Assembly: GCA_910577015.1 (NCBI GenBank)
Contig: CAJTKU010000001.1
Location: 185,298-249,297, forward strand
Length of the DNA stretch: 64,000 nt
Direction of reading: 5' to 3'
Source of the DNA: an uncultured Lachnospiraceae bacterium
Lineage (GTDB): Bacteria; Bacillota; Clostridia; Lachnospirales; Lachnospiraceae
Part shown: piece by piece, positions 11,155 through 62,499 of the stretch
Position numbering within the stretch: the first letter of the stretch is position 1
How the letters are laid out: every line of letters starts with the position of its first letter
Program-made: the position numbers and the translations under genes
Notes under the pieces: model-generated
What the model was told of the DNA's origin: nothing
The model's input: only the letters and a program-made list of their open reading frames with translations
Databases searched by the model: none

Positions 11155-11357
11155 TTCACCCCTGCCCCGGCAAGGCATCCCCGACCCCGGCGTGCATTTG
11201 TTCCAACAGGACGCGCTCCCGCTCGAGTAAAAACGCAGCGGCACATAGGATGCCACAGAACAGCATCCAAGGGCCGGCGTTTTTACACGGTCCTTTTTGG
11301 AATCAAATGCACGCCGGGGGCGGGGATGCCTTCCCGGAGGCGGGGTGCGGAAGTGAA
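11155..11357. repeat. Nested palindromic intergenic element, copy A (about 200 bp)
   Basis: Arms aaggcatccccgaccccggcgtgcatttgttcca / tggaatcaaatgcacgccgggggcggggatgcctt pair. The core taaaaacgcagcggcac-ata-ggatgc(cacagaaca)gcatcc-aag-ggccggcgttttta is the reverse complement of the core in copies B2 and C. The element starts 6 nt after the stop of the upstream gene. Confidence 0.85.
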
Positions 11358-33642: not shown

Positions 33643-34146
33643 TTACTCTTCTATATATGTAATATTATCCGTTCCGCGGCTCAATCCTGCGATGCCGGTC
33701 CTCGCCAGTTCCAAAATCTCGTACCCTTCCAGCAGGCTGATAAAGGCGTCTATCTTTGTCTGGTCGCCGGTCATTTCCACAATCAGGCTTTCCGGACCCA
33801 CATCAATAATATTGGCGCGGAAAATCCCTGCCAGGGAAATCACTCCCTGCCGCTCGCTGGCCCTTGCGCGCACTTTAATCAGGGCAAGCTCCCTGTAAAC
33901 GCTCTCCTCCGGCCTTAACTCCTTGATATCCCTTATATCTACAAGCTTTGCAACCTGCTTTTCAATCTGCTCCAAAACCTGGTCGTCACCGCTTGTCACA
34001 ATCGTAATCCGCGAAAACCTGGGGTCTGCTGTCACCCCCGCTGTGATGCTCTCAATATTATAACCGCGTCTGGAAAATAATCCTGATATTCTGCTCAACA
34101 CGCCGGAAGTATTTTCCGCCAACAGTTGAAATACTTTTTTCTGCAA
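33643..34146 (-). CDS. ilvN: Acetolactate synthase small (regulatory) subunit, paralog 2
   Basis: ACT domain LLAENTSGVLSRISGLFSRRGYNIESIT plus a C-terminal ACT-like domain. The ORF track begins at TTG 34167. TTG 34146 is better spaced from GGAGG, so the start is uncertain. Confidence 0.85.
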   Translation of the reverse strand: MQKKVFQLLAENTSGVLSRISGLFSRRGYNIESITAGVTADPRFSRITIVTSGDDQVLEQIEKQVAKLVDIRDIKELRPEESVYRELALIKVRARASERQGVISLAGIFRANIIDVGPESLIVEMTGDQTKIDAFISLLEGYEILELARTGIAGLSRGTDNITYIEE

Positions 34147-34220
34147 TGCTTTTTCCTCCACTATCAATCATCCCTTAGTTTTTAACTATAGCAATAGTTG
34201 CGGGTGTTGTCAAGATTTTT

Positions 34221-34430
34221 GCATGAAGGGATGCTGTCGTTAGGATGTCGCGAGTGACGCGGGATGAAACGGATATTCCCGCGTCACCGCGCTTTCGCTC
34301 TGTTAAAAACGTAACAGTGCTAAGCTCGAAAATACCTCGCTAAGCGCTGACGTTTTTAAAAGGGTTCCTTCGGGAATATCCGTTCCATCCCGCTGTTTCC
34401 CAAAGCGGCCGCCTGACGGCATCCCGCATG
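34221..34430. repeat. Nested palindromic intergenic element, copy B1 (diverged, same orientation as A)
   Basis: gggatgaaacggatattccc pairs with gggaatatccgttccatccc. The outer pair is gcatgaagggatgc / gcatcccgcatg. The core is cgcgctttcgctctgttaaaaacg...cgtttttaaaag. Confidence 0.75.
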
Positions 34431-34513
34431 TACTGTAGTATTTTTTAGAAGTTTACGGGCAGGCGGCGTATCCTGCTAAATCAGGACACTTTGTGAGGGA
34501 ACGCCGTGTTACA

Positions 34514-34651
34514 GCAGCCGGAAGCCTTATATTCCTGTGAAGACCTTTTAAAAACGCCGGCATTTAGGCGCTGTATTTCAGCGCCTTACGTGCCGCTGCG
34601 TTTTTAAAGAGCGAAAGCGCGTCTGAATGGGAATATAAGGCTTCCGGCTGC
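34514..34651. repeat. Nested palindromic intergenic element, copy B2
   Basis: A perfect 21-bp basal stem, cagccggaagccttatattcc / ggaatataaggcttccggctg. The core is aaaaacgccggcatttag-gcgct(gtatttc)agcgc-cttacgtgccgctgcgttttta. Confidence 0.85.
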
Positions 34652-34692
34652 GTCACTCTCGTCACACCCTTTACCTTAAACGGCGCTTGCCC

Positions 34693-35181
34693 CTAGGTAT
34701 CGCTCTCCGAACACTTCGGCAGCGCCAGCGTCCCCGTCCTTGCCACTTCCACGATGCTGATGGATGCCAGCATCTGGATGAACAGCTTGGTTTTTTCGGG
34801 AATGTCGCAGACCTGAATCATCATCTGGCTCTTGGACATGTCCACGATATCCGCTTTCATCATTTCACAGATTTCCATGATTTCGCGGCGGGTGGTTTTG
34901 TTGTATTTTACCTTTATCAGCATCAATTCCCTGCTGATGCTGCGCGACTCATCAAAGGTTTTTACTTTTATGACATCCAGCTTTTTATTCAATTGTTTTT
35001 CTATCTGCTCTATGGTGCGCTCGTTGCCGCTGGAAACAATGGTCATGCAGGATACGGCGGAATCGTCCGTTTCTCCTACCGCAAGACTGTCAATATTGAA
35101 GCATCTTCTGGAAAAGAGCCCTGCCACCTTGCACAATACGCCGGAACGGTTCTCCACCAGTACTGAATATATCTTTTTCAT
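34693..35181 (-). CDS. ilvN: Acetolactate synthase small (regulatory) subunit, paralog 1
   Basis: ATG 35181 (MKKIYSVLVENRSGVLCKVAGLFSRRCFNIDSL). It lies 18 nt downstream of the ilvB stop. Confidence 0.88.
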   Translation of the reverse strand: MKKIYSVLVENRSGVLCKVAGLFSRRCFNIDSLAVGETDDSAVSCMTIVSSGNERTIEQIEKQLNKKLDVIKVKTFDESRSISRELMLIKVKYNKTTRREIMEICEMMKADIVDMSKSQMMIQVCDIPEKTKLFIQMLASISIVEVARTGTLALPKCSESDT

Positions 35182-35199
35182 AAGCAAAACCCTTCCTTC

Positions 35200-36816
35200 C
35201 TACTTTACCAAATCCATGGGGTCAATCAGGCATTCCAGCAGCATTGTCTTGTCCTCTTTTAAAAATGCGTCGATAATTTCCTCCGCTTTCTCCATATTTT
35301 CCAGCCTGAGGAACGGGATTTCATATGCCGCCGAAAGCTTTTCCAAATCAGGACTTCCCGAAAGGTCCACCACGGAATACTGGTCTTTATATGTGTAATG
35401 CTGGTATTCCCTTACCATACCCAGATAATTGTTTTTTAGGACGATTATCTTTACCGGTATCTGATGCTGTCTTATGGTCGCAAGTTCCATCATGGACATC
35501 TGGAAGGAGCCGTCGCCGCAGACAGCGATAACCTGCTTTGACATATCTGCCAGTTTTGCTCCCATAGCCGCCGGAATGGAATATCCCATCGTACCCATAC
35601 CTCCGGAGGTAAGAAATTTCCCCTCTTTCACAATATGATATCCGCAGGACCATATCTGGTTCTGTCCTACGTCTGCCACATAGACGCCGTCAGCCTGCAT
35701 TTTTTCGGATAGCCGGGTGATAAAAGCAGCCGGGTCCACATAGGCAGGATTGGGCGTCCTCTTTTTTTCCATGGTGGAACGGTATCCGTCCAACGCCTCT
35801 ATCCACTCTTCATGCTCGCAGGCAAATTCCTGTTGGGCAAAATCCATAAAAATATTTCTGGCGTCCCCTACCAACGGTATGGTCGGTCCCGCATTCTTAC
35901 CTATTTCCGCCGGGTCCACATCGATATGTACAAGCACCTTATTCTGCGTAATCAAATCCGGCTGGCTCACCGCGCGGTCTGCCACGCGCGCCCCCACCAT
36001 AATCAGCATGTCGGACTCATTCATTGCCCTGTTGGCATATGCTTTTCCGTTGTTTCCCACCATTCCGTAGTAGAGCGGATGCTCCGTGGGCATAACGCCG
36101 ATACCCATCATGGTGGATACAACCGGAATCCTGTGCTTTTCCGCAAAACTCCTAAGTTCCTCCTTGCCGCCGCTTAACAAAACGCCGCCGCCGGCACAGA
36201 TAATGGGACGTTTTGCATGTTCAAGCTCCTTTACCACTTTCTTAATCTGGACTGCATGTCCTTTGACCGTGGGCTTATAAGTCCTTAAGGATACTTCTTC
36301 CGGATAAGAAAAACGGCTGATTGCCGCATTCTGCACGTCAATGGGTATGTCAATCAAAACCGGACCCTTTCTTCCTGAATTGGCAATGTAGAACGCCTCC
36401 TTAAAAATCCGGGGAATCTCCTGTACATTTTTTACCAGATAGCTGTATTTCACGAAAGACTCAACCGCCCCCGTAATATCCGCCTCCTGGAACACATCGC
36501 TTCCCAGCAATTCACTGTCTACCTGTCCGGTAATGCAGATTAAAGGTATGCTGTCCGCAAACGCTGTTGCTATGCCGGTGATGACATTGGTGGCTCCCGG
36601 ACCGGACGTTACGGCGCACACACCGGGCCTGCCGGTGATTCTTGCCATGCCGCTTGCCGCATGTGCGGCATTCTGCTCCGTACGAATCAGAACGGTCCTG
36701 ATATCAGACTGTAAGATACTATTATAAAAAGGACAGATAGCGACTCCCGGATAGCCAAAGACTACTTCCACACCTTCCGCCTCGAGACATTTGATTATGG
36801 CATCTGCTCCTATCAT
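35200..36816 (-). CDS. ilvB: Acetolactate synthase large (catalytic) subunit
   Basis: 538 aa with MIGADAIIKCLEAEGVEVVFGYPG and the ThDP motif GDGSFQM...N. SD gggagg is upstream. Confidence 0.92.
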   Translation of the reverse strand: MIGADAIIKCLEAEGVEVVFGYPGVAICPFYNSILQSDIRTVLIRTEQNAAHAASGMARITGRPGVCAVTSGPGATNVITGIATAFADSIPLICITGQVDSELLGSDVFQEADITGAVESFVKYSYLVKNVQEIPRIFKEAFYIANSGRKGPVLIDIPIDVQNAAISRFSYPEEVSLRTYKPTVKGHAVQIKKVVKELEHAKRPIICAGGGVLLSGGKEELRSFAEKHRIPVVSTMMGIGVMPTEHPLYYGMVGNNGKAYANRAMNESDMLIMVGARVADRAVSQPDLITQNKVLVHIDVDPAEIGKNAGPTIPLVGDARNIFMDFAQQEFACEHEEWIEALDGYRSTMEKKRTPNPAYVDPAAFITRLSEKMQADGVYVADVGQNQIWSCGYHIVKEGKFLTSGGMGTMGYSIPAAMGAKLADMSKQVIAVCGDGSFQMSMMELATIRQHQIPVKIIVLKNNYLGMVREYQHYTYKDQYSVVDLSGSPDLEKLSAAYEIPFLRLENMEKAEEIIDAFLKEDKTMLLECLIDPMDLVK

Positions 36817-36864
36817 ACTGTTTCCTCCCTGCTGTTCTTTTTTGAATGATACACGTATACGGAC

Positions 36865-36894
36865 ATTTTAGCACAGTAAAGTATAATATTTCAA
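36865..36894 (-). promoter_or_regulatory. Putative ilvB promoter (TTGAAA-N18-TAAAAT, TG-extended)
   Basis: The minus strand reads ttgaaa tattatactttactgtgc taaaat. It lies between palindromic element C and the ilvB SD. Confidence 0.5.
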
Positions 36895-36906
36895 CAAAAA
36901 TTTTAT

Positions 36907-37091
36907 GATTCCGCATACGGCATGGCGGCAGCCCCGGCGCGCATTTGATTCCATAAAGGACCGTGTAAAAACACCGGCATTTAGAGGTTGTATTTTAACC
37001 TCTTATGTGCCGCTGTGTTTTTACCCGAGTGAGAACGTGTCCTGTTGGAACAAATGCGCGCCGGGGCTGCCGCCATGCCGTATGCGGAATC
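36907..37091. repeat. Nested palindromic intergenic element, copy C (185 bp, 41-bp perfect basal stem)
   Basis: gattccgcatacggcatggcggcagccccggcgcgcatttg (36907-36947) is the exact reverse complement of 37051-37091. The core is aaaaacaccggcatttag-aggtt(gtatttt)aacct-cttatgtgccgctgtgttttta. Confidence 0.9.
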
Positions 37092-37097
37092 ACAAAT

Positions 37098-39605
37098 TTA
37101 TCTCATCTGTTCCATAAGCCTGCCCGCCAGTTTTACTGCTTCCGCTGCGTCCTTGGAATATCCGTCCGCGCCGATTTCCCGTGCGTATTCTTCTGTGATA
37201 ACGGCGCCGCCCACCATGAATTTTGCAGTGACTCCCTGCTCTCTGGCGTACTTTATGACAGCTTCCATCTGCTTCATGGTCGTTGTCATCAGCGCGGAAA
37301 GGGCTATAATGGAAGCATTATGCTGCTTTGCCGCTTCAATAATTGTTTCTTTGGGGACGTCCTTGCCCAAGTCTACCACCCGAAAACCATAGTTTTTTAA
37401 CATCAGGGCCACCAGATTTTTACCGATATCGTGAATGTCCCCTTCCACCGTGGCAATGATGATGACGGGCATGTCTTTCCCGGTCTTCTCGGTAAGAAGC
37501 AGTGGTTCCAGCACTTCAATGGCAAGCTTCATTGCTTCCGCGCCTGCAATCAACTGTGGAAGGAAATACCTTCCGCTGTCAAAGTAATCCCCTACCGTGT
37601 TAATGGCCGGCAAAAGCACTTCGTCCAACAGCGCCCTTGGCTCTTCCCCTTCTGCAAGGGCATCCCGCGTTATCTGCACAATTCCGCTTTTGTTCCCTTT
37701 TAACACCGCTTCTTTCAGCATATGCCTTACCGGACTGCCTTCTTCCTTTCCGCCGTCCTTTTTGGCTTCCTTACCTTCCTGCCCCTTTTCCACGCTCTTT
37801 GCAGCTGCCGGAGCGGCCGCCTGCAAATGCCGCAGGGCTTCTTCTCGCTGTTCCCTCTTTTCTTTCAAAACGCCCGCATAAGATATGTAGCGCATGTCTG
37901 CGTCTTCTTTGTTCAAAAGCAAATCAGCCGCAAACGCACAGCCCATTAACAGTTCCTGTGATGGATTGGCAATCGCCATGGTAAGTCCCGATTGTATCGC
38001 CATCGTCAGAAAGGCCGTATTCACATAACCTCTCTCCGGCATTCCGAAAGATATGTTGGAAAGCCCGCAGATTGTAGCAAACCCTTCCTTTTTGCAGAAA
38101 CGGATTGTTTGCAGGGTTTCTAACGCCGCCGTTTTATTGGCCCCCACCGTATTCACCAGTCCGTCCACCACAATATCTTCCTTTTGAAATCCGAGGTCTT
38201 TTGCCCTCTCCCATATTTTGCGGATAATCTCCTTTTTTTCCTCCAGATTGGCCGGCAGTCCTGCGTCGGAAAGCGGAAGCAGGATAAACATGGCGCCGTA
38301 TTTTTTTACAATGGGAAGCAACCGCTCAAATTTTTCCTTCTCATAGGAGACGGAATTGATTAAAGCCCTGCCGGGGTAACGCCTAAGCGCCGCTTCCAGA
38401 ACGGAGATATGGCTGGAATCAAGGGAAAGGGGCAGACTGGTAACCGTGCCCACCTCCTCAATCGCCTTCAGCATCATCTCCTTTTCGTCTATACCACCCA
38501 TCCCCATGTTGACGTCAAGGATACTTGCTCCGCAGTTCTCCTGTTCCTCCGCAAATTCCCTGACCATATCAAGGGAGCCTTCTTTAAGCGCCGCCTGCAG
38601 TTTCTTTTTGCCGGTAGGGTTGATGCGCTCCCCCACCACGATAAAAGAATTATCCAAGGTAAAGGACACCGTCTGTCTTTCAGACGCAAGACAGCGAAGG
38701 CCTGACTGTCCTTTACACCTTCCCTGCCTTTCCACTCCCAATTTCTCTTTAAGCAATGCAATATATGAGGGCTGGGTGCCGCAGCATCCGCCAAATATAG
38801 AAGCCCCTGCTTCTTTCAACAGCCTCATTTCCTCTGCAAATTCTTCGGGCTGCATGTCATAACAGGTATTTCCCTCCTTGTCCACAAAAGGAAGCCCTGC
38901 ATTGGGTTTCGCTATAACGGGAATCCTCACCGCCTGCGCCATTTCCCCGATAATACCCTGCATGGCAGCAGGACCCGTGGAGCAGTTTGCCCCGATAGCG
39001 TCTGCGCCTAAAGAGGAAAGCACTACTGCGGCAGTTAACGCGTCTGTCCCGAAAAGGGTTCTGCCGTCCCCTTCAAAAGTCATCGTCACCATAACGGGTA
39101 AATCGCAGGTTTCTTTGGCTGCAATGAGGGCTGCCCTGGTCTCCTGCAGGCTCATCATGGTTTCTATGACAAGCAAATCAACCCCTGCATCCAGAAGCGC
39201 CAGAATCTGCTCTTTATAGATGGTAATTAATTCCTCAAAATCCATCTTTCCGATAGGGGCAAGCTGCTGTCCCGTCATGGTAAGGTTTCCTGCAATATAA
39301 GCTTTACCTTCCGCCGCCTGCCTGGACAATGCCACCAGTTTTTTTGTCATATCCCTAAGATTATTCTGCAGGCCGTATTCCGCAAGTTTAATCCTGTTTG
39401 CCGAAAAAGTAGGTGCATAAAGGATATTACTGCCCGCTTTAACATAAGCCTTTTGCAGTTCCAGAAGTACCCCGGGGTTTTCCAGAATCCACTTTTCAGG
39501 ACAGACGCCCGCAGGCATTCCCGCTTTCATCAGGTTAGAACCGGTCGCCCCATCCAGATATATATTATTTTTACTGCTCCAAGCCGCAAATTCCTTTTTC
39601 GTCAT
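37098..39605 (-). CDS. metH: Methionine synthase, short form (Hcy-binding + pterin-binding + B12-binding; no reactivation domain)
   Basis: ORF 37098..39653; ATG 39605 (MTKKEFAAW). Domain order was read from motifs (GGCCGT region, pterin-binding barrel, DIHDIGKN B12 loop). The protein ends right after the Rossmann B12 domain. Confidence 0.88.
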   Translation of the reverse strand: MTKKEFAAWSSKNNIYLDGATGSNLMKAGMPAGVCPEKWILENPGVLLELQKAYVKAGSNILYAPTFSANRIKLAEYGLQNNLRDMTKKLVALSRQAAEGKAYIAGNLTMTGQQLAPIGKMDFEELITIYKEQILALLDAGVDLLVIETMMSLQETRAALIAAKETCDLPVMVTMTFEGDGRTLFGTDALTAAVVLSSLGADAIGANCSTGPAAMQGIIGEMAQAVRIPVIAKPNAGLPFVDKEGNTCYDMQPEEFAEEMRLLKEAGASIFGGCCGTQPSYIALLKEKLGVERQGRCKGQSGLRCLASERQTVSFTLDNSFIVVGERINPTGKKKLQAALKEGSLDMVREFAEEQENCGASILDVNMGMGGIDEKEMMLKAIEEVGTVTSLPLSLDSSHISVLEAALRRYPGRALINSVSYEKEKFERLLPIVKKYGAMFILLPLSDAGLPANLEEKKEIIRKIWERAKDLGFQKEDIVVDGLVNTVGANKTAALETLQTIRFCKKEGFATICGLSNISFGMPERGYVNTAFLTMAIQSGLTMAIANPSQELLMGCAFAADLLLNKEDADMRYISYAGVLKEKREQREEALRHLQAAAPAAAKSVEKGQEGKEAKKDGGKEEGSPVRHMLKEAVLKGNKSGIVQITRDALAEGEEPRALLDEVLLPAINTVGDYFDSGRYFLPQLIAGAEAMKLAIEVLEPLLLTEKTGKDMPVIIIATVEGDIHDIGKNLVALMLKNYGFRVVDLGKDVPKETIIEAAKQHNASIIALSALMTTTMKQMEAVIKYAREQGVTAKFMVGGAVITEEYAREIGADGYSKDAAEAVKLAGRLMEQMR

Positions 39606-41320: not shown

Positions 41321-41857
41321 TTAGAAATATCTGTAAAAACTTGGGTCATTGATAACCACATTCAAATATACGCAGAAGAAAACGATTGCCACTACAATGC
41401 TGATTGCAGATACAATAATTGCCGCAATACCCAGCCCGGATTTTTTCTTAACCTGTCCGATAATGGAAAAGATAAGACCCACTATACCAATCAATGCGGA
41501 AATCCAGCTTAAAATACAGGAAGACAAAAGCGCTAAGATAGCAATTACAAAGCCTGCAATAGACAATCCGCTGGTGCCGCCTGTGGTCTGCATCGGAACC
41601 GCATAAGGCTGCTGGTACATATTCTGGTCCGGCATCTGCTGGTATGCATTCTGCTCATAACCAGTCTGCTGGTACGGCTGCTGATAGCCCTGCTGATAAT
41701 TAGGCTGCTGATAGCCCTGCTGTTGATAACCCGGCTGTTGATAGTTAGGCTGCTGATAACCCGGCTGCTGATAGTTAGGCTGCTGGTAGTTCGATTGTTC
41801 CGGCGTCTGTGAAGGCTGCTGCCCGGAATAGTTGTTATTGAAATTTTGTCCGTCCAT
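41321..41857 (-). CDS. Membrane protein with N-terminal Q/P/Y-rich repeats (QPNYQQPGYQQ) and C-terminal two-TM domain
   Basis: 178 aa. The tandem repeats are visible in DNA at 41640-41800. The C-terminal TM hairpin resembles those of 43208..43792 and 43935..44213. Confidence 0.7.
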   Translation of the reverse strand: MDGQNFNNNYSGQQPSQTPEQSNYQQPNYQQPGYQQPNYQQPGYQQQGYQQPNYQQGYQQPYQQTGYEQNAYQQMPDQNMYQQPYAVPMQTTGGTSGLSIAGFVIAILALLSSCILSWISALIGIVGLIFSIIGQVKKKSGLGIAAIIVSAISIVVAIVFFCVYLNVVINDPSFYRYF

Positions 41858-43207: not shown

Positions 43208-43792
43208 TTAATAATAATAATCAAATAAGTCTTCAAAATCATCCAGGTCAAAGCTGTCGCCAAAGGTACTCTTTAAATCATTTTTGGCCTTGCAGCTTCC
43301 GCCCACACAGCCATAGCAGGTATAACCGCCGCTGACTGCACCGCAAATACCGCAGCTTGCTGCAAAAATAACGCCAAAAATCAATCCCAGTATTCCGCAG
43401 ACCAAACCTGCGGAACCCTTTGCATTATTGGTCTCCTTCCTTGCGCTGATACCCGTAACCAATGCAACAACGCCCAAAATCACTGCAAGCAGACCGCCAA
43501 ATACACCAAACATAATGCCGCCAAATACTGCAACAATGATGCTGATGACACCGCAGATAGTCGAAATCGTTGCATTCACATTACTGCCTCCATCCGGTGC
43601 AGGAACAGGCGCTACAGGCATCTGACCGGGCGTCTGGTAAACCGGTCCATTATTAACCGGCATTCCGTTGTTTACCGGAGTACTGTTATTAACCGAAGCG
43701 CTGTTGTCTGTCTGTACGCCTAATGCTGTACCGCAGTTCGGACATACATTTGCCCCATCCGGCACTTGGTTTCCACAATTACCACAAAACAT
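43208..43792 (-). CDS. Zinc-ribbon + multi-TM membrane protein
   Basis: ATG 43792 (MFCGNCGNQVPDGANVCPNCG) behind ggaggg. An N/P/V-rich linker precedes G/A/I-rich TM helices. Confidence 0.7.
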   Translation of the reverse strand: MFCGNCGNQVPDGANVCPNCGTALGVQTDNSASVNNSTPVNNGMPVNNGPVYQTPGQMPVAPVPAPDGGSNVNATISTICGVISIIVAVFGGIMFGVFGGLLAVILGVVALVTGISARKETNNAKGSAGLVCGILGLIFGVIFAASCGICGAVSGGYTCYGCVGGSCKAKNDLKSTFGDSFDLDDFEDLFDYYY

Positions 43793-43934
43793 CTTTTTCC
43801 CTCCTGTAAGAAAATATAACATTTTTTATAATTACTATGTAACTGTATATTACATTATTCAGTTTACCAATCCAGTGCATTAAAGTCAATATAATTCTGC
43901 CTTATATTTGTAGAAAACACTGCTTTATTCCCAT

Positions 43935-44213
43935 TTACACAGTCATAAAAAATAAACCTCTTCTGGCTGCGCCGCACATACTGCAGCTTACTGCAAAAAA
44001 AACTCCGAATATCAATCCCATTATACCGCAGACAAAACCGGCGGTTCCCTTTGCGCCATTGGTTTCCTTTCTTGCGCTGATACCAGTTACCAATGCAACA
44101 GCGCCCAAAACCGCTGCAAGCAGACCGCCAGACACACCGAACATGATACCGCCAATTTCCGCAACAATGATGCTGATAACGCCAAAGATGGTCGAAATCG
44201 TCGCTTTTAACAT
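43935..44213 (-). CDS. Stand-alone paralog of the TM domain of 43208..43792 (92 aa)
   Basis: ATG 44213 behind ggaggagaaagg. About 85% nucleotide identity by eye between 44010-44215 and 43380-43600. Confidence 0.65.
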   Translation of the reverse strand: MLKATISTIFGVISIIVAEIGGIMFGVSGGLLAAVLGAVALVTGISARKETNGAKGTAGFVCGIMGLIFGVFFAVSCSMCGAARRGLFFMTV

Positions 44214-44268
44214 CCTTTCTCCTCCATTAAGGCAATAAATCTTGCAAAAATGCGTTGATATTTTATGT

Positions 44269-53995: not shown

Positions 53996-54081
53996 CTTTA
54001 TTTGTTGTTTGATTATGTATATATTATACTTCGCAACTGCGAGTTTGTCAATAGTTTTACTTCTCAAAATACAAATTTTTT
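53996..54081. repeat. 86-bp promoter-operator cassette, copy 1
   Basis: Near-identical to 62414..62499. A 64-nt run is identical (54007-54070 = 62425-62488). Confidence 0.9.
54023..54051 (-). promoter_or_regulatory. Consensus sigmaA promoter TTGACA-N17-TATAAT with dyad in spacer (copy 1)
   Basis: The minus strand reads ttgaca aactcgcagttgcgaag tataat. An A/T-rich tract lies upstream. Confidence 0.75.
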
Positions 54082-62413: not shown

Positions 62414-62499
62414 GCATTTGTTTTGTTTGATTATGTATATATTATACTTCGCAACTGCGAGTTTGTCAATAGTTTTACTTCTCAAAATGCAAATTTTTT
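62414..62499. repeat. 86-bp promoter-operator cassette, copy 2
   Basis: See copy 1. The offset between copies is 8418 bp. Confidence 0.9.
62441..62469 (-). promoter_or_regulatory. Consensus sigmaA promoter TTGACA-N17-TATAAT with dyad in spacer (copy 2)
   Basis: Identical to copy 1. It is the most upstream early promoter visible. Confidence 0.75.

What the first reader, a model, noticed from the sequence alone, without database searches (positions are those of the whole stretch)
34221..34651. Two members of the same palindromic family, in opposite orientation, fill the 525-bp spacer between the two ilvN paralogs
Copy B2 (34514-34651) has a perfect 21-bp basal stem and a core nearly identical to copy C (aaaaacgccggcatttag...cttacgtgccgctgcgttttta). 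Copy B1 (34221-34430) carries the reverse-complement arrangement (cgcgctttcgctctgttaaaaacg...cgtttttaaaag). It has its own unrelated basal stems (gggatgaaacggatattccc / gggaatatccgttccatccc). The conserved part is therefore internal and the terminal stems differ per copy. This is the opposite of MITE/IS logic, where termini are conserved. The pair splits what would otherwise be one ilvB-ilvN-ilvN-ilvC operon.
Basis: seen in the sequence. Interest (0 to 1): 0.65.

Follow-up and report, generated by a model that had tools for sequence, protein, structure and literature searches.

The report
Mobile hairpin repeats in ilvN spacer
The gap between the two ilvN genes holds two copies of a small hairpin-shaped mobile DNA repeat that is scattered through rodent-gut Lachnospiraceae genomes; they are recent passengers that landed upstream of an older internal promoter and did not split the operon.

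Summary
The 525-bp ilvN-ilvN spacer holds two members (B1, B2) of one palindromic family in opposite orientation. The window has exactly four copies (A, B1, B2, C).

The family is a multi-copy interspersed repeat of Lachnospiraceae, with at least 17 copies in one MAG. Elements are 135-210 bp. Each has a conserved three-way-junction core (TAAAAAC/GTTTTTA stem, variable apical stem, G-Y-GNRA-R-C side hairpin) and long self-complementary arms.

It behaves as a non-autonomous transposable element (MITE-like):
- Filled and empty orthologous sites exist.
- Target-site duplications of 7-12 bp flank many copies.
- Termini are conserved within subfamilies.
- No orientation bias relative to genes and no G·U excess in the stems.
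- No Rfam match.

Four related species keep metH-ilvB-ilvN-ilvN-ilvC with 72-140-bp spacers, no element, and the same TTGACA-17-TATAGT promoter before the second ilvN. So the internal promoter is ancestral, and B1, B2 and C inserted just upstream of promoters.

Copies decay by internal deletion. One same-species contig has lost B2 and most of B1, and a sister species has lost the B1 and C cores. Arms co-evolve in place, with 33 mirrored double substitutions between orthologous copies.

The mobilising enzyme was not found. Verdict: a new MITE-like family of moderate interest.

The parts
34228..34425 (-). Copy B1 (Type III subfamily), full hairpin element. The inner palindrome is 34259-34393, the covariance-model core 34260-34386, and the outer stem 34228-34238/34415-34425. 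It is flanked by a 5-bp direct repeat GCATG (34221-34225 and 34426-34430), a weak TSD candidate.
34514..34651 (+). Copy B2 (Type II subfamily), a 138-nt palindrome with the three-way-junction core (model hit 34521-34649). It lies head-to-head with B1.
34185..34213 (-). Ancestral internal promoter of ilvN-b/ilvC: TTGACA-17-TATAGT with a TG extension, 11 of 12 consensus positions. It is conserved in element-free relatives.
34693..35187 (-). ilvN-a, acetolactate synthase small subunit paralog 1.
33643..34167 (-). ilvN-b, paralog 2, 37% identical to ilvN-a. The database gene call starts at GTG 34161 and gives 172 aa.
36907..37093 (+). Copy C (Type I), 187 nt, lying between the metH stop codon and the -35 of the ilvB promoter. 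It is flanked by the TSD AAATTTTAT (36898-36906) and AAATTTAT (37094-37101).
36865..36894 (-). ilvB promoter (TTGAAA-17-TAAAAT), conserved in relatives. Copy C sits 3 nt upstream of its -35, counting from the TSD edge.
   Evidence: read directly from the sequence
11157..11347 (-). Copy A (Type I), 191 nt, between a FtsW/PBP fusion gene and a NUDIX gene.
34468..34489 (.). Small hairpin (gtatcctgctaaatcaggacac) in the B1-B2 spacer. It is a perfect 9-bp stem in strain L062. Its role is unknown.

Best explanation
B1 and B2, with copies A and C, are members of a non-autonomous, MITE-like family of foldback transposable elements specific to a group of rodent- and herbivore-gut Lachnospiraceae.

Anatomy. 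An element is 135-210 bp of almost fully self-complementary DNA. Its centre is a conserved asymmetric three-way junction made of:
- an invariant TAAAAAC/GTTTTTA helix,
- a 2-nt bulge,
- a variable, covarying apical stem,
- a side mini-hairpin G-Y-GNRA-R-C, for example GCGAAAGC.

Shown:
- Elements insert into A/T-rich intergenic DNA, typically between an upstream stop codon and the next promoter, and duplicate 7-12 bp of target.
- B1, B2 and C entered the ilv locus in the common ancestor of the window species and MGBC100230. They landed upstream of promoters that already existed.
- Copies are later eroded by deletions that remove the hairpin apex or run between short direct repeats.
- The two arms of each copy evolve in concert in place.

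Inferred:
- An unidentified trans-acting transposase that makes staggered target cuts moves the elements.
- The conserved core is a recognition or assembly module for that machinery or a host factor, read in the folded (hairpin or cruciform) form.
- Arm complementarity is maintained by intramolecular templated correction (quasi-palindrome template switching, arm-to-arm conversion), by selection for pairing, or by both.
- The effect on ilv expression is probably small: a structured 3'-UTR or read-through obstacle. It is not the origin of the two-promoter architecture.
For: Family and copy number:
- The core pattern gives 61 genome loci. 53 of them are confirmed by the covariance model, and all lie in Lachnospiraceae-type MAGs: at least 17 in MGBC100230 and at least 10 in MGBC113942. 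The 8 hits in other phyla fail the model.
- A further 93 metagenome loci were found.
- None were found in viral contigs or plasmids.

Insertion:
- Four related species, including Parablautia muri, have the same gene order, spacers of 72-140 bp (ilvN-ilvN) and 60-100 bp (metH-ilvB), and no model hit.
- L003:242-511 is filled against a clean empty site at L152:2616/2617, with a single CAAAGCC that is duplicated in the filled site.
- L092 is filled against an empty L039, with a TSD close to TGTATTCCC.
- Copy C is flanked by AAATTT(T)AT. Removing it restores 'stop codon + 7 nt + -35', exactly as in relatives.
- Flanking direct repeats of 7 nt or more occur in 8 of 55 elements against 0.95 expected (maximum 4.07 across 200 shuffles, count scaled to 55 elements). 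In the larger, partly redundant set the figures are 17 of 109 against 2.3 expected (maximum 7).

DNA-level rather than RNA-level:
- G·T and A·C mismatches in stems are equal: 44 vs 46 in the arms and 31 vs 33 in the core.
- Covarying pairs switch GC<->AU and CG<->UA with almost no G·U.
- Orientation relative to flanking genes is 18 sense to 14 antisense.
- No Rfam match.

Decay:
- L063, a short metagenome-run contig of the same species (its IlvN-b is identical), has a 146-bp spacer. It has lost B2 and about two-thirds of B1 between CGAAAGCGC repeats.
- MGBC100230 has lost the B1 core between GCGGGA repeats.
- MGBC100230 has also lost the C core, leaving a 70-nt perfect hairpin.

Concerted arms:
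- Five orthologous copy pairs show 33 mirrored double substitutions against 26 one-sided changes, while the arms diverge at about the rate of the flanks.
- By my own inspection of the sequences, every difference I found between the window and MGBC100230 in the C-site arms is mirrored in the opposite arm.

Promoter: TTGACA-17-TATAGT lies at 34213-34185, and no terminator is predicted in the spacer.
Against: - No transposase or autonomous parent was found next to any copy, or anywhere in about 1.25 Mb of fetched loci. Trans-mobilisation is therefore inferred.
- TSD length varies (7-12 bp), and 1-6 unmatched bases often lie between the TSD and the palindrome. The extreme termini are poorly conserved between copies. 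This is not typical of a single DDE transposase.
- The 135-139-nt subfamilies (Types II, III and V, which include B1 and B2) show no clear TSD at the palindrome edge. B1 has only a 5-bp GCATG repeat.
- The core is more conserved across subfamilies than the termini, and this hints at a function I could not identify.
- Orthologous copies were retrieved by a pattern that requires the core invariants. In-place conservation of the core therefore cannot be judged without bias.
Confidence: 0.75

Rival explanations
1. A structured non-coding or cis-acting RNA family. The forward-strand transcript folds into a three-way junction with a GNRA tetraloop and acts as an mRNA 3'-end stabiliser, an RNase III site or a transcriptional insulator between ilvN-a and ilvN-b.
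For: - The fold is very stable.
- The apical stem, junction pairs and side hairpin covary, and every side-hairpin loop is GNRA.
- Copies lie in regions that read-through from the upstream gene would transcribe.
- Both orientations would give a long RNA hairpin.
Against: - There is no excess of G·U over A·C and almost no G·U at covarying pairs.
- The asymmetric core occurs sense and antisense to transcription about equally, 18:14.
- TSDs, empty sites and deletion variants show mobile-DNA behaviour.
- A same-species contig lacks most of both copies.
- d(GCGAAAGC)-type loops are also exceptionally stable DNA mini-hairpins; this rests on my own knowledge.
- No Rfam hit.
- Exaptation of individual copies is not excluded.
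Confidence: 0.1
2. A REP/REPIN-like element mobilised as single-stranded DNA by a domesticated HUH tyrosine transposase (RAYT or IS200/IS605-type). The enzyme would recognise the folded hairpin rather than terminal sequence.
For: - Structure is conserved more than sequence.
- The conserved asymmetric hairpin carries a bulge.
- Head-to-head dimers recur: all 5 inverted neighbour pairs found are head-to-head.
- Types II and III have fixed edges, 'ACA|GC...GC|GTCAC' or 'CGTA|GC'. These resemble the CGTC and GTAG tags described for REPs (PMC3733652).
Against: - TSDs of 7-12 bp and clean empty sites that hold one copy of the duplicated sequence. Y1 HUH transposition leaves no TSD (established knowledge).
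- Elements are 4-8 times longer than REPs.
- No Y1 transposase was found beside any copy.
- GTAG and CGTC REPs were not reported in Firmicutes in PMC3733652.
Confidence: 0.08
3. Not one mobile family. Instead, locally generated palindromes (inverted duplications of flanking DNA around a short conserved protein-binding core), which would explain the copy-specific stems.
For: - Outer stems look unrelated between the window's subfamilies.
- The MGBC100230 'B1 site' keeps just one arm.
- The palindrome ends are ragged but symmetric.
Against: - Within subfamilies the arms are homologous over their whole length.
- Filled versus empty sites differ by the whole element plus a TSD.
- The single-arm states retain other outer parts of the element, and outgroup species lack all of it. 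They are therefore deletions.
Confidence: 0.03

Closest known systems
Bacterial MITEs that fold into long hairpins (Correia/NEMIS in Neisseria, RUP and BOX in Streptococcus pneumoniae, ERIC in enterobacteria)
   Same: Small (about 100-200 bp), non-coding and multi-copy. They are intergenic, with inverted-repeat termini and target-site duplications, and occur in either orientation relative to genes. Insertions are polymorphic between close relatives, and the long hairpins could affect mRNA.
   Different: - No sequence similarity and a different host clade.
- Almost the whole element is palindromic.
- The most conserved part across subfamilies is an internal asymmetric three-way junction, not the termini.
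- TSD length is variable (7-12 bp).
- No cognate IS was identified.
REP/REPIN-RAYT systems and GTAG/CGTC-tagged REPs (PMC3733652, PMC2817692)
   Same: Structure-conserved palindromes with frequent head-to-head dimers that form larger hairpins. They sit at intergenic sites, and some subfamilies have short fixed tags at the palindrome edge.
   Different: - Much longer: 135-210 nt against 20-40 nt.
- TSDs are present.
- No RAYT was found nearby.
- The host is Firmicutes.
IS200/IS605-derived palindrome-associated elements and integron attC sites (DNA sites recognised as folded single strands)
   Same: An imperfect hairpin with conserved extrahelical bases, a variable terminal structure and strand asymmetry.
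   Different: - Those systems leave no TSD.
- attC sites sit in cassette arrays next to an integrase.
- IS200/IS605 ends are two different hairpins, with insertion 3' of a fixed tetranucleotide.
None of this is seen here.
Arm-to-arm conversion and quasi-palindrome template switching (a mechanism, not a family)
   Same: Substitutions are mirrored in both arms of a palindrome, so that it stays perfect while it diverges between lineages.
   Different: It is shown here only as a pattern (33 mirrored changes). The process itself was not observed, and selection for pairing would give the same pattern.

Membership tests
MITE (miniature inverted-repeat transposable element) | Small size with no coding capacity | tested here: met
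   Elements are 120-336 bp, with modes at about 135 and 180-200 bp. Only spurious ORFs overlap them.
MITE (miniature inverted-repeat transposable element) | Terminal inverted repeats shared by family members | tested here: met
   Type I termini are TTGARTTTCCGCATTTTGCA and its complement. Type IV termini are GATTGCGAAACGCCG-like. The extreme tips are ragged.
MITE (miniature inverted-repeat transposable element) | Target-site duplication, and empty sites in relatives | tested here: met
   - L003 against L152: CAAAGCC.
- L092 against L039: about 9 bp.
- Copy C: AAATTT(T)AT.
- Enrichment of flanking repeats over shuffled controls.
. Not shown for the 135-139-nt subfamilies.
MITE (miniature inverted-repeat transposable element) | Many dispersed copies per genome | tested here: met
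   At least 17 copies in MGBC100230, at least 10 in MGBC113942, and 4 in this 64-kb window.
MITE (miniature inverted-repeat transposable element) | A cognate autonomous IS with matching termini that supplies the transposase | tested here: inconclusive
   None was found in about 1.25 Mb of fetched loci or in the window. Whole genomes could not be scanned.
REP/REPIN-RAYT | Short (20-40 nt) palindrome with a GTAG or CGTC tag | tested here: not met
   Elements are 135-210 nt. Only Types II and III show tag-like edges.
REP/REPIN-RAYT | Single-copy RAYT (Y1 HUH) gene flanked by the repeats | tested here: inconclusive
   No such neighbour was found among the sampled loci. Genomes were not searched exhaustively.
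REP/REPIN-RAYT and IS200/IS605 derivatives | Insertion without target-site duplication | tested here: not met
   TSDs of 7-12 bp are present.
Any Rfam RNA family (release 15) | Covariance-model match at or near the gathering score | tested here: not met
   No match at gathering thresholds over the whole window. At E <= 10 over 34100-37200 there are only two chance-level hits.
Structured RNA under selection (generic) | Excess of G·U over A·C in helices, and consistent orientation relative to transcription | tested here: not met
   44 vs 46 and 31 vs 33. Orientation is 18 sense to 14 antisense.
Integron attC | Location in cassette arrays beside an integrase, with R''/R' core sites GTTRRRY | tested here: not met
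   Copies are dispersed between housekeeping genes. GTTTTTA does not fit GTTRRRY.

The most novel reading that the evidence does not exclude
The conserved three-way-junction core, not the termini, may be what the mobilisation machinery reads, in folded single-stranded or cruciform DNA. The arms would then be regenerated from one another at or between transposition events, by fold-back or template-switch synthesis.

This would explain several features together:
- ends that are ragged but always symmetric,
- perfect yet hypervariable arms,
- filler bases and variable TSDs,
- the absence of a recognisable cognate IS.

If so, this is a structure-defined class of bacterial mobile element, distinct from both TIR-defined MITEs and HUH-mobilised REPINs. 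Core-less 'solo hairpins' left by its decay would be a source of new intergenic hairpins.
Probability: 0.12. Interest if true: 0.8.

Novelty: new member of a known kind. Interest (0 to 1): 0.4.

Why it matters
The finding corrects the reading of this ilv locus. The two-promoter layout with tandem ilvN paralogs is ancestral in this Lachnospiraceae group, and the large hairpins are recent passengers.

More generally, it defines a repeat family that appears to be undescribed: it is absent from Rfam 15 and was not found in the searched literature. The family is abundant in rodent-gut Lachnospiraceae and matters for several reasons:
- It will break short-read assemblies, because contigs end at the palindrome centres.
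- It marks strain-level insertion and deletion polymorphism.
- It gives a clear natural example of concerted evolution of palindrome arms.
- It shows how such elements decay into perfect 'solo' hairpins next to promoters and stop codons.

Tried and rejected
- Rfam at gathering and at permissive thresholds gave nothing relevant.
- RNA evidence was unusable. No public RNA run holds the spacer well. The one 'RNA?' run gives only broken contigs, and the remaining runs are DNA or host single-cell data. Transcript structure of ilvB-ilvN / ilvN-ilvC is therefore untested.
- The search for an autonomous partner or a recurrent neighbour gene found only housekeeping genes:
  - all-against-all clustering of ORFs from the loci,
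  - Pfam scans of neighbours, including genes lying between two copies,
  - a search for orphan terminal motifs, which found only core-less remnants.
- Viral contigs and plasmids gave no copies.
- The literature searches found no description of this family.
- The idea that outer stems are copied from the target was considered because MGBC100230 keeps one B1 arm. I rejected it for two reasons. That locus also keeps B1's outer module, and outgroups lack everything.
- The idea of strong in-place purifying selection on the core came from B2, which shows 0 of 71 differences. I withdrew it as a general claim for two reasons. Other orthologous pairs show 7-16 core-region differences, and the orthologues were retrieved by a pattern that requires the invariants.
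- I inspected the core by eye for promoter-like or IHF-like motifs and found no convincing match.

Full report
**What is there**

The window region 32.5-39.7 kb encodes, all on the minus strand: a MetH-like methionine synthase, ilvB, ilvN-a (34693-35187), a 525-bp spacer, ilvN-b (33643-34167; the database gene call starts at 34161) and ilvC. The two IlvN proteins are only 37% identical, so they are old paralogs.

The spacer contains two long imperfect palindromes.
- B2 spans 34514-34651, with 31-nt arms that include a 22-bp perfect stem.
- B1's inner palindrome is 34259-34393, and a further outer stem at 34228-38/34415-25 gives about 198 nt in all.

Both share a core with copy C (between metH and ilvB) and with copy A at 11.2 kb. 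A pattern distilled from the four copies, TAAAAACNNCNGC-N28-48-GTTTTTAM-N1-2-GAGYG, hits four times against zero expected. A covariance model built from 56 relatives finds exactly these four copies in the 64 kb. It scores them at 87-118 bits in one orientation and only 14-17 bits in the other. The element therefore has a defined polarity, and B1 and B2 lie head-to-head.

**Anatomy**

An alignment of 56 copies and its consensus fold give the following, from outside to inside:
- Long arms that are about 91% Watson-Crick paired.
- A short helix, typically GGAC/GTCC.
- A three-way junction.
- An invariant 7-bp helix, TAAAAAC/GTTTTTA. It is extended by two covarying pairs (GC<->AU, CG<->UA) and a CGGC/GCCG segment with a 2-nt bulge.
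- An apical stem whose sequence and length vary freely but stay paired.
- On the 3' side only, a mini-hairpin G-Y-[GNRA]-R-C. Here Y-R covaries (C-G 43, U-A 13) and every loop is GNRA (GAAA, GAGA, GGGA, GCAA, GGAA, GCGA).

The pair 28-102 next to the junction uses all four Watson-Crick combinations (29/16/5/5) with no G·U. The folds are extreme, with z = -12 to -17.

**Distribution**

- A scan of one genome per species returned 61 loci. The model confirms 53 of them, all in Lachnospiraceae-type MAGs from mouse, rat, rabbit, deer, human and other guts. There are at least 17 in MGBC100230, at least 10 in MGBC113942 and 4 in an Acetatifactor sp. The 8 hits in unrelated phyla fail the model.
- A metagenome scan added 93 loci.
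- There are none in viral contigs or plasmids, and no Rfam family matches.
- Read-depth over the cores in rodent-gut metagenomes is 5-40 times that of the flanks.
- Five subfamilies are visible. Copies A and C are Type I, B2 is Type II and B1 is Type III.
- Within Type I the arms are clearly homologous over their whole length and end in a shared terminal motif.
- Sizes fall in two modes, about 135-139 nt and about 170-210 nt. The short class, at least in B1 and L022, carries a further outer stem beyond an internal loop, which brings it to about 200 nt.

**It is mobile DNA**

1. *Element-free relatives.* Four related species were reached through IlvN-b homologues: three uncultured Lachnospiraceae and Parablautia muri. 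All have metH-ilvB-ilvN-ilvN-ilvC, with ilvN-ilvN spacers of 72-140 bp, metH-ilvB spacers of 60-100 bp, and no model hit.

2. *Filled and empty sites between the sister assemblies ERZ777305 (= MGBC100230) and ERZ777011*.
   - L003:242-511 is present where L152 has an uninterrupted sequence with a single CAAAGCC. That heptamer flanks the element on both sides in L003.
   - L092's copy is absent from L039, where one TGTATTCCC corresponds to two diverged flanking copies.
   - A third case shows an ATAAAAT-like duplication.

3. *Copy C.* It is flanked by AAATTTTAT and AAATTTAT. Removing the element and one repeat restores 'TAA stop + 7 nt + -35', the exact geometry of the relatives.

4. *Statistics.* Flanking direct repeats of 7 nt or more at symmetric offsets occur in 8 of 55 elements against 0.95 expected (maximum 4.07 across 200 shuffles, count scaled to 55 elements). 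In the larger, partly redundant set the figures are 17 of 109 against 2.3 expected, maximum 7. Examples are TATTTTGTATT, GAGATAAGAG, TACAGTAAA, CACAACTTT and GCCAAAAT.

These are the defining behaviours of a MITE.

**DNA or RNA?**

The GNRA loops and the covariation suggested an RNA. Three tests argue for a DNA-level palindrome.
- Wobble-type mismatches show no strand preference. G·T versus A·C is 44 vs 46 in the arms and 31 vs 33 in the core.
- Covarying pairs almost never pass through G·U.
- The polar core lies sense and antisense to flanking tandem genes about equally, 18 vs 14. Twelve copies lie between divergent genes and only two between convergent genes.

GCGAAAGC-type loops are also known as unusually stable DNA mini-hairpins; that point rests on my own knowledge and was not tested here.

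**History of the ilv locus**

All element-free relatives carry a sigma-70 promoter directly before ilvN-b, for example TTGACAagcaggaaaagtattgcTATAGT. The window has the same promoter, TTGACA-17-TATAGT with a TG extension, at 34213-34185, and no intrinsic terminator is predicted in the spacer. A TTGAAA-17-TAAAAT promoter before ilvB is conserved in the same way, and copy C sits immediately upstream of its -35. The internal promoter is therefore ancestral, and the elements inserted between the upstream stop codon and the -35. They did not create the split.

The MGBC100230 orthologue (88-90% identical) has B2. It has lost the B1 core between GCGGGA repeats while keeping B1's outer parts. At the C site it retains only the two outer arms, fused into a 70-nt perfect hairpin.

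L063 is a 1,585-bp contig from metagenome run ERR12710598, and its IlvN-b is identical to the window's. It has a 146-bp spacer in which B2 and about two-thirds of B1 are deleted between CGAAAGCGC repeats. The rat- and mouse-gut strains sampled in runs X4 and X10 keep both copies. The pair is therefore dispensable and unstable. Further core-less hairpins and single-arm remnants occur elsewhere.

**Concerted arms**

I compared five pairs of orthologous intact copies, with flanks 80-88% identical. They show 33 positions where both partners of a stem pair changed and remained complementary, against 26 one-sided changes. My own rough estimate, not a tool result, is that only one or two mirrored changes would arise by chance. 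Arm divergence tracks flank divergence. By my own inspection of the sequences, every difference I found between the window and MGBC100230 in the C-site arms is mirrored in the opposite arm.

The mechanism is inferred. It could be intramolecular templated correction, selection for pairing, or both.

B2's 71-nt core is identical in the two species. Other pairs differ at 7-16 core-region positions, mostly in the apical stem, and the orthologues were retrieved by a pattern that requires the invariants. I therefore do not claim in-place purifying selection.

**Clustering**

Among neighbouring copies, all five inverted pairs are head-to-head (the window, L022, L037, L045 and L016). One locus, L018, has three tandem copies. 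The partners belong to different subfamilies and the spacings differ, although L022 and L049 share a similar inter-copy spacer. This resembles the head-to-head dimers of REPs (PMC3733652).

**What remains open**

No transposase or recurrent neighbour was found. TSD length varies, unmatched bases often separate the TSD from the palindrome, and the extreme tips are not conserved. Across subfamilies the core is better conserved than the termini. These points keep alive a more novel reading, in which the machinery recognises the folded core and the arms are regenerated from one another. I give that reading about 12%.

No usable RNA-seq exists for this organism in the indexed runs. Any effect of the hairpins on read-through or mRNA stability is untested.

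**Verdict**

The best explanation is a new family of foldback, MITE-like transposable elements of Lachnospiraceae. Three copies entered the ilv locus upstream of pre-existing promoters. This is a new member of a known kind, of moderate interest.

Noticed in passing
window 54005-54081 and 62423-62499: Two 77-nt segments are 99% identical and lie 8.4 kb apart. Read on the minus strand, each contains a consensus TTGACA-17-TATAAT promoter. The surrounding region (about 50-64 kb) encodes DarA_C, HNH endonuclease, DUF3560 and XRE-like proteins, so it looks like an integrated mobile element or prophage.
   Followed up: partly
L139 3431-3500 (MGBC100230, orthologue of the copy C site); L097 10179-10232: Core-less derivatives of the element. 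The two outer arms are fused into a perfect hairpin of about 70 nt. This shows a route by which decaying elements leave new intergenic hairpins next to stop codons and promoters.
   Followed up: partly
L022 1021-1364; L037 5416-5774; L045 1131-1796; L016 4112-4643; L018 605-1018: Elements cluster. All five inverted neighbour pairs, including the window's B1/B2, are head-to-head, and L018 has three tandem copies. L022 and L049, which are not orthologous, share a similar inter-copy spacer, so some dimers may move or duplicate as units.
   Followed up: partly
L003 275-424; L042, L099 and L122 (elements of about 335 nt): Some copies carry an extra hairpin nested in the apical stem, or are about 140 nt longer than usual. 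This suggests insertions into the apex, or nesting of one element in another.
   Followed up: no
window 33643-35187 and loci L064-L071: The tandem pair of divergent ilvN paralogs (37% identical), with an internal promoter before the second one, is conserved across at least five Lachnospiraceae species, including Parablautia muri. The reason for keeping two small subunits next to one ilvB was not examined.
   Followed up: no
window 41621-41814: An imperfect tandem repeat of period 12-15 nt (11 copies) lies inside the minus-strand ORF 41321-41857. It encodes a Gln/Gly/Tyr-rich low-complexity stretch of a small putative membrane protein.
   Followed up: no
window 43324-43591 and 43955-44222: A 268-nt direct repeat, 81% identical and 631 nt apart, overlaps a zinc-ribbon/DUF308 gene (43208-43822). 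It is probably a tandem paralog duplication.
   Followed up: no
L062 about 830-880, against window 34652-34692: Strain L062 carries GCGCCGAAAGCGCattaggagtgagggaatgacgggagtgac directly after the ilvN-a stop codon. This resembles the 3' part of a Type III element, so it may be the remnant of a third insertion at this hot spot. It supplies the repeat used in the L063 deletion.
   Followed up: partly
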